64,000 nt of DNA, taken from assembly GCF_001677475.2 (NCBI RefSeq), contig NZ_CP015229.1. The stretch is one strand, 5' to 3'. The DNA is from Escherichia coli. Its GTDB lineage: Bacteria > Pseudomonadota > Gammaproteobacteria > Enterobacterales > Enterobacteriaceae. Every line of letters starts with the position of its first letter. The first letter of the stretch is position 1. A program made the position numbers. Shown piece after piece: positions 60,001 through 63,000 of this stretch.

Positions 60001-63000
60001 CCAAACGCGCTCGCGCCTAATCCCAGGCTATGGTCCCCCGTGCCGCCAGTACCAAAGACACGAAAACCACTGCTTTGTCCTTCCTGCAATAAATCTTTTG
60101 CATCGACCGTATCGTAGGAGATCACTCCACCCAGCGCGCCACTGCCATACAGTAATGCTGAAGGTCCACGAACAATCTCAACACGCTTGATCAGCGCCGG
60201 ATCGAGAAAAGTGCCATTCAGGTGTCCGGTATCCGTTCCCTGACGAACACCATCGACAAGAACCAGCACGCCGCGATGATCATAGCCACGCATATTTACA
60301 TCCTGACCGTTGGTTCGTCCGGTACCATCCAGAGTAATTCCAGGAACATGACGCAGCAGATCGGAGGCTGAAGTAGCCGTTTGATTTTCAGGAGCGGAAG
60401 TGTCGATGACGCTGACCATCATAGGCGCTTCGAAGGAACTACGGGCATTCCCCGTTGCCGTAACGGTTATGGTTTCAGTAGCAAAAGCAAACGTTGGCAA
60501 GGTGGCAGAAACAGCCAAAGCCAACAAACTCAAACGCAACGAGGTAAATTGCGGACGTGACATAGCGATTCTCCATGAGGAAAATAAAAAATGCTGGCTG
60601 CCTGGGTTAATACCGGGGTGGCTGGCGAAAAATAAATTTATTTAAAATTCAGAGCGATAATATTCGCCGGGTGAATTTACAGGCGTTTATATCCCATGAA
60701 ATTGCCTGGTATCTCGGCAAATACGCAAAAGCACGCCCTCTTTGTCAGGCAAAACGATATGCCCCATCAGGAGTGAAGAGCGCTGTGCGTTATCCCTTGC
60801 AAATGCTATGGTTTTGTTATCCATATGGTCGTGATTTGTTAAGCTCAAACATGATAATGAGAATTATTATCGATCAATTTTTTATGATCAAGCTTTTTTT
60901 TAACCACCATTAACACAATAAACAGGGGGTTATGAAACCTATCCTGCGCCCTGTAAACCACCATGTTTTTATGGTTATTCCCCCATGCCTCATCACTAAA
61001 CTTTGTCGTTAACAGTGATAATTTTCTCTTCTCTTTGCTCTGCAAGCCTCGATATCTCTGGGTTCTCAGCTTTTTCCCGCGATGAAATTTAGTCGGTAAC
61101 AAGAACGTTAGCTGACGAAGCATCTTGATAAAAATCAAAAATAAATACGCTTGTAACGCCTTGCGTATTGAATCGACGGTTGTATTTCATATATAACTCA
61201 AATGATAATCATGATCATTCTCAATTTGATAAGAGTTCTCATATTATGCCAAGGATCATCACCAGGCCGTTTCTTTTTTCCCCACTGACGTTATGTATTT
61301 CAGCCGTGGCCTCTGCCGCGAAGACCGCGGTAAAACGAAAAAAATTGTTTACGGCAGTACTGGCTCTTAGCTGGGCTTTTAGCGTAACGGCTGCCGAACG
61401 TATCGTGGTCGCAGGAGGATCGCTGACGGAGCTAATCTACGCGATGGGCGCTGGCGAACGCGTGGTTGGTGTCGATGAAACGACATCTTATCCACCAGAA
61501 ACCGCCAAACTGCCGCATATTGGCTACTGGAAACAACTCAGCAGCGAAGGCATTTTGTCACTTCGCCCGGATAGCGTAATTACCTGGCAGGATGCTGGAC
61601 CGCAAATTGTGCTCGACCAACTACGGGCGCAGAAAGTCAACGTCGTTACCCTGCCGCGTGTGCCTGCCACCCTTGAGCAGATGTACGCCAACATTCGCCA
61701 ACTGGCAAAAACGTTACAGGTTCCTGAACAAGGGGACGCGCTGGTGACACAGATCAACCAACGCCTGGAGCGAGTACAGCAAAACGTGGCAGCCAAAAAA
61801 GCCCCGGTTAAAGCCATGTTTATTCTCTCCGCAGGCGGAAGTGCGCCACAAGTTGCCGGTAAAGGCAGCGTCGCGGACGCCATTCTTTCGCTTGCCGGAG
61901 CAGAAAACGTCGCTACCCACCAGCAGTACAAAAGCTACAGTGCAGAATCACTGATTGCGGCTAACCCTGAAGTGATTGTCGTAACCTCACAAATGGTCGA
62001 TGGCGATATTAATCGGCTACGTTCTATTGCCGGAATTACCCACACTGCCGCATGGAAAAACCAGCGCATTATCACCGTTGATCAAAACCTGATTCTGGGA
62101 ATGGGTCCGCGTATTGCTGATGTCGTTGAGTCTTTACACCAGCAGCTTTGGCCGCAATAAATGGATTTAAATCAGACGAATGAACGCAAATAACACCCTG
62201 GATCTCACGCCACATTTTGCTTTAGACGGTGATCAGCCATTTAAAGACAGGCGCGCCATGATGCCGTTTCGTGGAGCCATTCCAGTTGCCAAAGAGCAAC
62301 TGGCACAGACCTGGCAAGAGATGATCAATCAAACGGTATCACCACGTAAGCGACTGGTTTATCTACACATTCCTTTTTGTGCAACACACTGCACGTTTTG
62401 TGGTTTTTATCAGAACCGTTTTAATGAAGATGCGTGTGCTCATTATACCGACGCCCTGATTCGTGAAATAGAAATGGAAGCGGACAGCGTATTGCATCAG
62501 TCTGCCCCCATCCACGCGGTCTATTTCGGTGGCGGCACGCCTTCCGCGCTTTCGGCACACGATTTGGCCAGAATTATCACCACATTACGAGAAAAGCTGC
62601 CACTGGCCCCTGATTGTGAAATCACTATCGAAGGCCGGGTACTGAATTTTGACGCTGAGCGGATCGATGCTTGCCTTGATGCAGGAGCAAACCGCTTCTC
62701 AATTGGTATTCAGTCGTTTAACAGCAAAATCCGCAAGAAAATGGCCCGCACCTCGGATGGCCCAACCGCCATTGCGTTTATGGAAAGCCTGGTCAAACGC
62801 GACCGTGCAGCGGTGGTCTGTGACCTACTGTTTGGCCTGCCGGGTCAGGATGCGCAAACCTGGGGAGAAGATCTGGCTATTGCCCGCGATATCGGTCTCG
62901 ACGGCGTCGATCTTTATGCGCTCAATGTCCTGCCCAATACACCGCTGGGCAAAGCCGTGGAAAATGGGCGTACTACCGTGCCCTCTCCGGCAGAACGTCG

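What the first reader, a model, noticed from the sequence alone, without database searches (positions are those of the whole stretch)
60564..61245. Divergent chuA / chuT control region with two Fur boxes and a long chuA leader
Fur-box-like sequences sit at 60853-60871 and 61201-61221. The first is ~290 nt upstream of the chuA start, implying a long 5' UTR; the region just upstream of the chuA Shine-Dalgarno is U-rich (CAUUUUUUAUUUUCCUCAUGGAG), compatible with a FourU-type thermosensor as reported for the Shigella homolog.
Basis: partly seen in the sequence, partly recalled or inferred. Interest (0 to 1): 0.3.

Follow-up and report, generated by a model that had tools for sequence, protein, structure and literature searches.

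The report
Known iron-and-temperature switch for heme uptake
This is the already well-studied control region between the heme-uptake genes chuA and chuT of pathogenic E. coli/Shigella (two Fur iron-repressor sites, a 291-nt chuA leader ending in a FourU RNA thermometer), so the finding is correct but ordinary; the only fresh point is that the leader also carries a deeply conserved twin-GCCAGC element that in related bacteria follows a small regulator gene, hemP, which Escherichia has lost.

Summary
Fur-box matches lie at 60853-60871 (2 mismatches) and 61204-61222 (3 mismatches); 0.05 matches are expected by chance in the whole window. chuA (58581-60563, minus strand) and chuT (ATG 61246, plus strand) diverge. 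A sigma-70-like promoter overlapping box 1 gives a leader of about 291-293 nt. Rfam's shuA_thermo model hits 60561-60592 (-) above its gathering score.

All of this is published: the Fur control and FourU thermometer of shuA/chuA, the dRNA-seq start site (291-nt UTR), CyaR activation, Rho attenuation, and the shuT start site 42 nt upstream with a Fur site at +1..+19.

New here:
- In about 70 other Enterobacterales species the ChuA orthologue follows an intact hemP gene.
- The Escherichia leader sits in that slot, with the same Fur-box spacing, but has no recognisable hemP coding capacity and evolves roughly neutrally.
- Its last 85 nt are at least 99% identical in 2187 of 2235 chu+ E. coli genomes. 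They contain a twin-GCCAGC element (60593-60626) resembling the HmuP-responsive element, which one paper reports as absent from gammaproteobacteria. My predicted CyaR pairing site overlaps it.

Verdict: already known, low interest, with a modest new evolutionary lead.

The parts
60853..60871 (.). Fur box 1 (GATAATGAGAATTATTATC), overlapping the chuA -10 hexamer and start site
   Evidence: 2 mismatches to the 19-bp consensus; 0.05 matches expected by chance in the window. Invariant in all 7 Escherichia loci. Sits at -245 from the twin-GCCAGC element, as in hemP-bearing genera (-239 to -286).
60863..60891 (-). chuA sigma-70-like promoter (-35 TTGATC 60886-60891, 17-nt spacer, -10 AATAAT 60863-60868)
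   Evidence: Consensus scan. The predicted start about 7 nt downstream agrees with the published 291/293-nt UTR (PMC9002310, PMC3660397).
60564..60854 (-). chuA 5' leader, 291 nt. +1 = 60854 by transfer of the EHEC dRNA-seq start site; leader position +n = window 60855-n
   Evidence: PMC9002310. The numbering checks out because U273 maps to 60582, which is U-19 of the FourU hairpin. There is no net length difference between the window's intergenic region and the O55:H7/O157-lineage allele.
60627..60852 (-). Fast-evolving 5' part of the leader, occupying the position of hemP in related genera; no coding constraint
   Evidence: Only 60-80% identical in 1229 of 2236 chu+ E. coli genomes. Divergence is roughly at the level of chuA third codon positions in the three more distant comparisons (L058, L037, E. 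albertii), but exceeds it against the B2 allele L002. Differences are spread evenly over codon positions, with frameshifts and stops in the 45-aa ORF. No Pfam hemP hit and no HemP-profile hit. Promoter plus 'ATGGATAACA' aligns to hemP promoters and start codons.
60724..60751 (-). Weak terminator-like hairpin with U tract (+104..+131), a partly conserved island in the mid-leader
   Evidence: Consensus scan. Coincides with the Term-seq 3' end at +129 reported in PMC9002310. Conserved in 5 of 7 Escherichia alleles. Function is inferred only.
60638..60678 (-). [quoted passage not shown]
   Evidence: Coordinates transferred from PMC9002310. Not tested here.
60593..60626 (-). Twin-GCCAGC element (GCCAGCCACCCCGG-UAUUAA-CCCAGGCAGCCAGC), HPRE-like, leader +229..+262
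   Evidence: Arms found upstream of the receptor gene in all 81 sequences with upstream sequence (80 loci plus the window); 26 of 28 arm columns are invariant or at least 90% conserved across 55 aligned sequences. The exact pattern occurs in 66 of 82 loci. RNAalifold pairs the arms as four 2-bp G-C steps separated by tandem C.A/A.C mismatches. The same hairpin appears in the MFE of the whole leader. It resembles the C. violaceum HPRE quoted in PMC9131926.
60591..60601 (-). Predicted CyaR pairing core (leader +254..+264, GCAGCCAGCAU, with CyaR nt 23-33 AUGCUAGCUGU)
   Evidence: RNAduplex gives -17.0 kcal/mol. The CyaR sequence was verified by Rfam RF00112. The position agrees with 'about 15 nt upstream of the SD' in PMC9002310.
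60561..60592 (-). FourU RNA thermometer (shuA_thermo) including SD GGAG 60571-60574 and AUG 60561-60563
   Evidence: Rfam RF02597, 60.1 bits against a gathering score of 58. Fold shown. The last 64 nt through codon 10 are invariant in 7 Escherichia loci, including E. albertii. The 85-nt 3' leader is at least 99% identical in 2187 of 2235 E. coli genomes.
61168..61197 (+). chuT/shuT promoter candidate (-35 TTGAAT 61168-61173, 18-nt spacer, -10 TATAAC 61192-61197)
   Evidence: Read from the sequence relative to the published start site. Inferred.
61204..61222 (.). Fur box 2 (GATAATCATGATCATTCTC) at +1..+19 of chuT
   Evidence: 3 mismatches. Position and mismatch count are identical to the published shuT Fur site (PMC5458455).
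61204..61245 (+). 42-nt chuT/shuT 5'UTR, itself a published RNA thermometer (U15/U16 pair with the ribosome-binding site)
   Evidence: PMC5458455. The fold pairs nt 14-18 with the AAGAG ribosome-binding site: -9.0 kcal/mol at 25 C and -5.8 at 37 C.

Best explanation
This is the known bidirectional control region of the chu/shu heme-uptake locus, which requires low iron and body temperature together.

Transcription: with iron present, Fe-Fur binds box 1, which overlaps the chuA -10 hexamer and start site, and box 2, at +1..+19 of chuT. Both transcripts are blocked.

chuAS: without iron, chuAS is made with a 291-nt leader. The leader's last 32 nt form a FourU hairpin that pairs the Shine-Dalgarno sequence at about 25 C and opens at 37 C. 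The same leader is also attenuated by Rho, activated by the sRNA CyaR just upstream of the hairpin, and repressed at the ribosome-binding site by RyhB and Esr41.

chuT: chuTWXYUV is made with a 42-nt leader that is a second thermometer.

Basis: these steps are shown in the literature for S. dysenteriae, EHEC and UPEC. Here they are transferred by sequence identity.

My inference: the leader is long because it occupies the place of the small regulator gene hemP, which precedes the orthologous receptor gene in other Enterobacterales. Escherichia lost the gene but kept the promoter spacing and the conserved hemP-hemR spacer, which consists of the twin-GCCAGC element and an SD-sequestering helix.
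For: Sequence evidence for the known elements:
- Fur boxes.
- Promoter overlapping box 1.
- Rfam shuA_thermo hit above the gathering score.
- Hairpin folds for both leaders.
- Gene identities from RefSeq annotation of 97-98%-identical E. coli loci.

Published experiments: PMC3660397 (with correction PMC8168886), PMC5458455, PMC9002310.

Selective constraint matches the functional map:
- Promoter and Fur box, and the last 64-85 nt of the leader, are invariant.
- The middle of the leader diverges roughly at the level of chuA third codon positions.

Evidence for the hemP-slot inference:
- 74 of 74 non-Escherichia loci with upstream sequence have an intact hemP ending in GKLILTK, 7-51 nt upstream of the twin-GCCAGC element in most (140-224 nt in five Buttiauxella loci); 0 of 7 Escherichia sequences do.
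- The Fur box lies at -245 from the element in Escherichia and at -239 to -286 elsewhere.
- A profile alignment covers the promoter and the hemP start codon.
Against: Nothing argues against the known part.

Weak points in the published record:
- The PLoS One paper needed a figure correction. An editor judged the native ShuA blot hard to interpret, although the reporter data stand.
- The window is not identical to any characterised strain. The best match is 98.2% for the intergenic region, though the 85-nt 3' leader segment (HPRE-like element plus thermometer) is 100% identical to sampled E. coli genomes, including O157:H7, and Fur box 1 is invariant across the Escherichia loci aligned.

Against the hemP-slot inference:
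- The body of the leader shows no significant similarity to hemP at the DNA level (pairwise z of 0-3; ORF-only profile E = 6.6 against the window).
- It shows none at the protein level either.
- The argument is therefore positional, and the segment could have been replaced rather than decayed.
Confidence: 0.9

Rival explanations
1. The twin-GCCAGC element in the chuA leader is a working regulatory RNA in its own right. On this view it is the gammaproteobacterial form of the HmuP-responsive element. It folds into a hairpin of G-C steps with A.C mismatches, and its 3' arm also closes a helix with the GCU just before the AUG. A factor that docks on it frees the start region. That factor would be HemP in relatives and CyaR in Escherichia. 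This would be the 'additional repressive element overcome by CyaR' that Sy and Tree postulated.
For: - The arms are near-invariant across 55 sequences down to 57-59% receptor identity, while the loop between them varies from 6 to 21 nt.
- RNAalifold predicts the hairpin, with one compensatory G-C to A-U pair in Budviciaceae. E. albertii changes A20 to G together with C46 to U, which turns an A.C pair into a G.U pair.
- The SD/AUG-sequestering helix that uses the 3' arm's AGC is 92% paired across the alignment, against 49-68% in slid controls, and has a C-G to U-A compensatory change in Escherichia.
- The predicted CyaR pairing falls on the 3' arm.
- The element is at least 99% conserved in 2187 of 2235 E. 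coli genomes.
- HPRE examples in PMC9131926 share the words AGCCAGCC and CAGCCAGCG.
Against: - Most pairs never vary, so covariation support is thin.
- The hairpin is energetically weak (-7 kcal/mol consensus).
- No HemP is encoded in the window, and no hemP DNA match exists in 5426 E. coli genomes.
- I could not read the paper that defines the HPRE.
- A secondary source says the HPRE is absent from gammaproteobacteria (PMC9241770), so the equation rests on motif resemblance.
- Conservation in E. coli could be explained by the CyaR site and thermometer context alone.
Confidence: 0.45
2. The long leader encodes a small protein, either a diverged HemP (the 45-aa ORF at 60687-60824, minus strand) or the 26-aa ORF at 60933 on the plus strand. 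On this view the 'leader' is really a two-gene operon.
For: An ATG-initiated 45-codon ORF starts exactly where hemP starts in relatives (MDN...). The 26-aa plus-strand ORF has a G-rich stretch before its ATG.
Against: - Differences between Escherichia alleles fall equally on codon positions 1, 2 and 3. There are frameshifting indels, premature stops and loss of the ATG in L058 and L003.
- No Pfam hemP hit, no KLILxK motif and no HemP-profile hit.
- There is no Shine-Dalgarno sequence before the ATG.
- The plus-strand ORF loses its start codon in L037, L047 and L058.
Confidence: 0.03
3. The U-rich tract is only an A/U-rich translational enhancer or Rho/Hfq site, and temperature control arises elsewhere, for example through mRNA stability or H-NS acting at the promoter.
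For: - Hfq crosslinks peak at the ribosome-binding site, and a Rho-dependent 3' end maps at +271 inside the U run (PMC9002310).
- Y. enterocolitica hemR1 has a FourU-like hairpin but is not thermoregulated (PMC6158557).
- Predicted SD-opening energies of Escherichia and of other genera overlap.
Against: - Point mutations that strengthen or weaken the hairpin shift expression in the predicted direction, without changing mRNA level, in three studies (PMC3660397, PMC9002310).
- The 32-nt element alone confers the effect on reporters expressed from foreign promoters.
Confidence: 0.05

Closest known systems
shuA/chuA FourU RNA thermometer (Rfam RF02597; Kouse et al. 2013)
   Same: The same 32-nt sequence in the same position before the chuA start codon. 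Same hairpin: four U paired with GGAG, and the U-19 and C-17 residues that were mutated. Scores above the family's gathering threshold.
   Different: Nothing in the element itself. In a longer context ViennaRNA prefers an alternative register at or below 37 C that uses the upstream U6 run and an AGC/GCU closing helix. This also occludes the SD and is not discussed in the papers I read.
shuT Fur site and 42-nt RNA thermometer (Wei, Kouse and Murphy 2017)
   Same: Fur site with 3 mismatches at +1..+19. 42 nt between the start site and the ATG. U15/U16 in the anti-RBS strand.
   Different: None detected.
EHEC chuA leader regulatory map (Sy and Tree 2022): 291-nt UTR, CyaR site, Rho attenuation, RyhB/Esr41 at the ribosome-binding site
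   Same: Leader length and numbering transfer exactly. My predicted CyaR duplex falls where they place the site.
   Different: They do not relate the CyaR site to the conserved twin-GCCAGC motif, to hemP or to orthologous loci. They left the 'additional repressive element' unidentified.
hemPRSTUV operons (Yersinia type) and the HemP/HmuP - HPRE system of alpha- and betaproteobacteria
   Same: An orthologous receptor gene. A Fur-controlled promoter at the same distance. A GCCAGC-type direct repeat in the RNA just upstream of the receptor's start codon.
   Different: Escherichia and Shigella have no hemP. The transporter genes are divergent rather than downstream, and ChuT is only 30-36% identical to the HemT of those loci. 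The HPRE has been reported as absent from gammaproteobacteria (PMC9241770).

Membership tests
FourU RNA thermometer / Rfam RF02597 shuA_thermo | Scores at or above the curated gathering threshold of the covariance model | tested here: met
   60.1 bits against a gathering score of 58 at 60561-60592 (-).
FourU RNA thermometer / Rfam RF02597 shuA_thermo | Four consecutive U pair with the Shine-Dalgarno sequence in a short hairpin immediately 5' of the start codon | tested here: met
   The MFE of the 32-mer pairs AUUUUCC with GGAGAAU around a UCAU loop. The same hairpin appears in the MFE of the whole 308-nt leader.
FourU RNA thermometer / Rfam RF02597 shuA_thermo | Translation rises from 25 to 37 C and shifts with stabilising or destabilising point mutations | not testable with these tools
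   Shown for identical sequence in S. dysenteriae, UPEC and EHEC (PMC3660397, PMC8168886, PMC9002310).
Fur-repressed promoter | 19-bp Fur-box consensus match overlapping the promoter or start site | tested here: met
   17/19 at 60853-60871, overlapping the -10 hexamer. 16/19 at 61204-61222, at +1..+19 of chuT.
Fur-repressed promoter | Fur binding and iron-dependent repression | not testable with these tools
   Shown for shuT in PMC5458455; stated for chuA in PMC9002310, citing Torres and Payne 1997 (which I did not read).
shuT RNA thermometer | 42-nt 5'UTR whose nt 14-18 pair with the ribosome-binding site; U15/U16 present | tested here: met
   Fold of 61204-61248. Positions agree with PMC5458455.
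HmuP-responsive element (HPRE) | Direct repeat of a GCCAGC(C)-type motif in the 5'UTR of a heme TonB-dependent receptor gene, within tens of nt of the ATG | tested here: met
   GCCAGCC...CAGCCAGC at -63..-30 from the chuA ATG. Present in 66 of 82 loci as an exact pattern and in all 81 sequences with upstream sequence when 1 mismatch is allowed. Compare the C. violaceum HPRE in PMC9131926. I could not read the defining paper.
HmuP-responsive element (HPRE) | Co-occurs with a hemP/hmuP gene in the genome | tested here: not met
   Met in all 74 non-Escherichia loci with upstream sequence, but no HemP is encoded in the window or in the 7 Escherichia leaders. There is also no hemP DNA match in 5426 E. 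coli genomes. A distant paralogue elsewhere is not excluded.
HmuP-responsive element (HPRE) | [quoted passage not shown] | not testable with these tools
   Needs genetics.
HemP/HmuP protein family (Pfam PF10636) for the leader ORF | Profile match and a C-terminal KLILxK motif with the His/Tyr heme ligands | tested here: not met
   No hemP hit at E <= 10. No hit with a profile built from 69 enterobacterial HemP sequences. The ORF is not under coding constraint.
RfaH-dependent operon leader (ops element) | GGCGGTAGnnTG in the leader | tested here: not met
   No match with up to 2 mismatches between 60564 and 60856.

The most novel reading that the evidence does not exclude
The 34-nt twin-GCCAGC element at 60593-60626 may be the enterobacterial counterpart of the HmuP-responsive element, a motif reported as absent from gammaproteobacteria.

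In about 70 Enterobacterales species it lies between hemP and the heme receptor gene, next to a conserved helix that sequesters the SD and AUG. Escherichia and Shigella lost hemP, and their 291-nt chuA leader is that gene's neutral remnant or replacement. They nevertheless kept the element under strong purifying selection.

Proposed mechanism: the element's 3' arm now serves as the CyaR docking site. Docking by HemP ancestrally, or by CyaR today, releases the AGC/GCU helix next to the start codon. The inner helix would have been softened (C-G to U-A, extra U) into a thermometer.
Probability: 0.4. Interest if true: 0.5.

Novelty: already known. Interest (0 to 1): 0.22.

Why it matters
It adds nothing new by itself.

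The comparative result may matter to specialists for three reasons:
- It explains why the chuA leader is so long: it sits where hemP used to be.
- It extends an HPRE-like motif to Enterobacterales, against a statement in the literature.
- It offers a concrete candidate for the unidentified repressive element that CyaR overcomes, namely the twin-GCCAGC hairpin and the AGC/GCU closing helix.

It also suggests a testable case of a protein-dependent translational switch being replaced by a thermometer and an sRNA.

Tried and rejected
- RfaH ops element in the leader: no match with up to 2 mismatches.
- Other Rfam families in 60000-61800: only chance-level hits. No Rfam family covers the twin-GCCAGC element in any of 18 loci.
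- Global structure of the 308-nt leader: z = -0.35 against shuffles, so it is not unusually structured.
- Leader ORF as HemP: Pfam negative and HemP profile negative in six frames of the window. Pairwise DNA alignment of the leader interior to hemP bodies gave z of 0-3. An ORF-only DNA profile gave E = 6.6 against the window. The hemP-relic idea therefore rests on position and flanks only.
- Small plus-strand ORF at 60933: its start codon is not conserved.
- Claim that the Escherichia hairpin is uniquely labile: the free energy of opening the GGAG is higher than the median of other genera (8.2 against 6.2 kcal/mol at 37 C), while opening from the SD through the AUG is lower (9.2 against 12.0). 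No clear separation emerged, so I dropped the claim.
- RNAduplex on the full-length molecules gave meaningless long duplexes. I repeated it with the CyaR seed region against leader +217..+300.
- The first literature search for hemP and chuA returned cannabis papers and the surname Chua.
- The defining HPRE paper (Amarelle 2019) is not in the library.
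Full report
**1. What is in the sequence**

The window carries chuS (57504-58532, -), chuA (58581-60563, -), a 682-bp intergenic region (60564-61245), chuT/shuT (ATG 61246, +) and chuW (62180-63517, +). RefSeq annotation of two E. coli loci, 98% and 89% identical in the intergenic region, gives the same gene calls and the same chuT start.

The intergenic region occurs in 2236 of 5426 complete E. coli genomes, always on the chromosome. It falls into two allele groups: 95-99% identity (1006 genomes) and 80-90% (1229 genomes). None is identical to the window, and the best match is 98.2%. Over 20 kb the best match is 97.5-97.6%. The source is therefore an Escherichia/Shigella lineage that is not among those complete genomes.

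**2. Checking the observation**

- Fur boxes. The 19-bp consensus matches only twice in 64 kb: at 60853-60871 (2 mismatches) and at 61204-61222 (3 mismatches). Shuffles predict 0.05 matches.
- Promoter. A sigma-70-like promoter on the minus strand (-35 60886-60891, -10 60863-60868) overlaps box 1.
- U-rich tract.
- Rfam. The shuA_thermo model (RF02597) hits 60561-60592 (-) at 60.1 bits, above its gathering score of 58.
- Fold. The 32-mer folds as AUUUUCC-UCAU-GGAGAAU. Stability falls from -8.4 kcal/mol at 25 C to -6.1 at 37 C.

**3. What is already known**

*shuA/chuA thermometer.* Kouse et al. 2013 (PMC3660397) showed that the S. dysenteriae shuA leader is 278-342 nt long. The last roughly 30 nt act as a FourU thermometer, supported by the stabilising U-19C and destabilising C-17A mutations. 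The UPEC chuA leader (293 nt cloned) behaves the same way. A 2021 correction (PMC8168886) repaired spliced blots. An editor found the native ShuA blot hard to interpret but upheld the reporter results.

*EHEC leader map.* Sy and Tree 2022 (PMC9002310) mapped the EHEC start site by dRNA-seq, giving a 291-nt UTR, and confirmed the thermometer with U273A. They also showed the following:
- CyaR activates translation by pairing about 15 nt upstream of the SD.
- Term-seq 3' ends lie at +129, +271 and +297.

Transferring their numbering puts +1 at window 60854. U273 then falls on 60582, which is U-19 of the hairpin, so the numbering is consistent.

*shuT.* Wei et al. 2017 (PMC5458455) mapped the shuT start site 42 nt upstream of the ATG. 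They found a functional Fur site with three mismatches at +1..+19 and showed that the 42-nt leader is itself an RNA thermometer, using the U15A/U16C mutant. In the window this corresponds to a start site at 61204, a Fur box at 61204-61222, and U15/U16 in place. The fold pairs nt 14-18 with the ribosome-binding site.

Its only gap is the second thermometer.

**4. Looking beyond the finding: why is the leader long?**

*The hemP gene in relatives.* A scan of one genome per species with ChuA returned 80 loci.
- In all 74 non-Escherichia loci with upstream sequence, the receptor gene (57-88% identical to ChuA) is preceded by an intact hemP (55-75 aa, ending ...GKLILTK). It is followed by hemS and a HemT that is only 30-36% identical to ChuT.
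- Only the Escherichia loci have the divergent chuT.
- None of the seven Escherichia sequences (the window, L001, L002, L003, L037, L047 = E. albertii, L058) encodes HemP. Pfam finds no hemP domain in the leader's 45-aa ORF. A profile built from 69 enterobacterial HemP sequences finds nothing in six frames of the window.
- Citrobacter hemP DNA has no match in 5426 E. coli genomes.

*Same slot, same spacing.* The Fur box lies 245 nt upstream of a conserved motif (section 5) in Escherichia and 239-286 nt upstream in hemP-bearing genera. A DNA profile of the hemP promoter regions aligns to the Escherichia promoter, Fur box and an 'ATGGATAACA' that coincides with the hemP start codon (E = 2e-8 in a small database).

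*No surviving gene body.* The interior of the leader is not significantly similar to hemP.

*Neutral evolution.*
- Differences among Escherichia alleles are spread evenly over codon positions. There are frameshifts, stops and lost start codons.
- Mid-leader identity to E. albertii and to the two distant E. coli alleles (75-81%) equals the identity at chuA third codon positions (76-81%).

I infer that the leader occupies the hemP slot and is either its decayed remnant or a replacement. This inference rests on position, not on proven sequence homology. One paper states outright that the S. dysenteriae locus has no hemP homologue (PMC6158557). None of the papers I read links this to the leader's length.

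**5. The conserved 3' part of the leader**

*Conservation within E. coli.*
- The last 85 nt of the leader are at least 99% identical in 2187 of 2235 chu+ E. coli genomes.
- The preceding 207 nt are only 60-80% identical in 1229 of those genomes.
- The last 64 nt through codon 10 are invariant even in E. albertii, where third codon positions of chuA differ at 24% of sites.

*The twin-GCCAGC element.* Besides the FourU hairpin, this block contains GCCAGCCACCCCGG-UAUUAA-CCCAGGCAGCCAGC (60593-60626; leader +229..+262).
- The two arms are found in all 81 sequences with upstream sequence (80 loci plus the window), down to Budviciaceae with 57-59% receptor identity; 26 of their 28 columns are invariant or at least 90% conserved in the 55-sequence alignment.
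- The spacer between the arms varies from 6 to 21 nt.

*Predicted structure.* RNAalifold pairs the arms as four 2-bp G-C steps separated by three tandem C.A/A.C mismatches.
- One pair is compensated (G-C to A-U) in Budviciaceae.
- E. albertii changes A20 to G together with the opposing C46 to U, which converts an A.C pair to a G.U pair.
- The same hairpin appears in the MFE of the full leader.
- Because most pairs never vary, structural support is suggestive only.

*Resemblance to the HPRE.* The motif resembles the HmuP-responsive element. That element is a direct repeat in the 5'UTR of heme receptor genes, needed for HmuP/HemP-dependent expression in Ensifer, and is also reported for Chromobacterium chuR (CCCGCAAGCCAGCCGACAGCCAGCCAGCG; PMC9131926). 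A later paper summarises the HPRE as 'absent in gammaproteobacteria' (PMC9241770). If the equation holds, the data here contradict that summary. I could not read the defining paper.

**6. Link to the SD-sequestering helix and to CyaR**

*Conserved helix.* Across the 55 aligned sequences, a helix that pairs AGC.CUUU(C/U) with GGAGAG..GCU is 92% paired. This helix sequesters the SD and the bases just before the AUG. Controls with the 3' partner slid by 1-3 columns are 49-68% paired. One pair changes C-G to U-A in Escherichia and a few other sequences. An SD-occluding hairpin is therefore ancestral to the whole orthologue group, and the Escherichia FourU hairpin is its U-rich derivative.

*Limits of prediction.* Rfam's narrow model hits only Escherichia loci. 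Predicted opening energies do not separate Escherichia from the other genera. Y. enterocolitica hemR1 has a FourU-like hairpin without thermoregulation (PMC6158557). Thermosensing therefore cannot be read from sequence alone.

*Competing pairings.* The AGC of the closing helix is the 3' end of the second GCCAGC arm, so the two structures compete for it.

*CyaR.* With a CyaR sequence verified by Rfam, the best duplex between the CyaR seed region and leader +217..+300 pairs CyaR nt 23-33 (AUGCUAGCUGU) with +254..+264 (GCAGCCAGCAU) at -17 kcal/mol. This is the second arm, and it sits where Sy and Tree place the site. That makes the twin-GCCAGC hairpin and closing helix a concrete candidate for the 'additional repressive element overcome by CyaR' that they left open. 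This is inference.

**7. Verdict**

The finding is real, correctly interpreted and already known in detail. Interest is low. The most novel reading compatible with the data is that Escherichia and Shigella retain an orphan HPRE-like RNA element from a lost hemP-hemR arrangement, now used by CyaR and sitting next to a helix that became a thermometer. I put this at about 0.4 probability and moderate interest.

Noticed in passing
window 60724-60751 (-): A weak terminator-like hairpin with a U tract (leader +104..+131). It is the best-conserved island of the otherwise fast-evolving mid-leader. It coincides with the Term-seq 3' end at +129 reported for EHEC, where ARNold found no intrinsic terminator.
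   Followed up: partly
window 60892-60936: A block just upstream of the chuA -35 hexamer (minus-strand reading ...CATAACCCCCTGTTTATTGTGTTAATGGTGGTTAAAAAAAA) is almost invariant in all 7 Escherichia loci, including E. albertii and the rearranged L003. It could be an UP element or a regulator site. OmpR binds near the -35 of the Yersinia hem promoters.
   Followed up: no
window 60627-60852 compared with L002 (E. coli EcPF5, urine isolate; lower-identity allele): The mid-leader is 74-82% identical between the window allele and this allele, yet chuA third codon positions are 93% identical. The allele shares many variants with distant E. coli and E. albertii alleles. The leader therefore looks mosaic or recombinant rather than clonally diverged.
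   Followed up: partly
L003 (Escherichia sp. MOD1-EC7003) about 2700-2830, and upstream: This locus has a roughly 125-nt insertion resembling an ERIC/IRU repeat inside the chuA leader, and a second copy upstream. No chuT lies within 3 kb, so the divergent arrangement is broken. The twin-GCCAGC element and the thermometer are intact.
   Followed up: partly
loci L004-L082: In non-Escherichia Enterobacterales the ChuA orthologue (up to 88% identical) sits in a hemP-hemR-hemS-hemT operon. That HemT is only 30-36% identical to ChuT. The transporter half of the Escherichia chu locus therefore seems to have a different origin from the receptor half.
   Followed up: partly
window 60549-60608 (-): In a 60-nt context the predicted MFE at or below 37 C uses the upstream U6 run and an AGC/GCU closing helix rather than the published FourU register. 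It switches to the published hairpin at 42 C. Both registers occlude the SD.
   Followed up: partly
window 9741-9773 (-): A second exact match to GCCAGCC-N(4-30)-CAGCCAGC lies inside a 220-aa ORF (9376-10038, +) on the opposite strand. It is probably a coding-sequence coincidence.
   Followed up: partly
window 50089-50173 and 50324-50407 (+): Two strong Rfam hits to AgrB (RF02891; 92.7 and 107 bits), the antisense RNAs of the ArsR-gor region named in the Rfam family description. They are unrelated to the finding.
   Followed up: no
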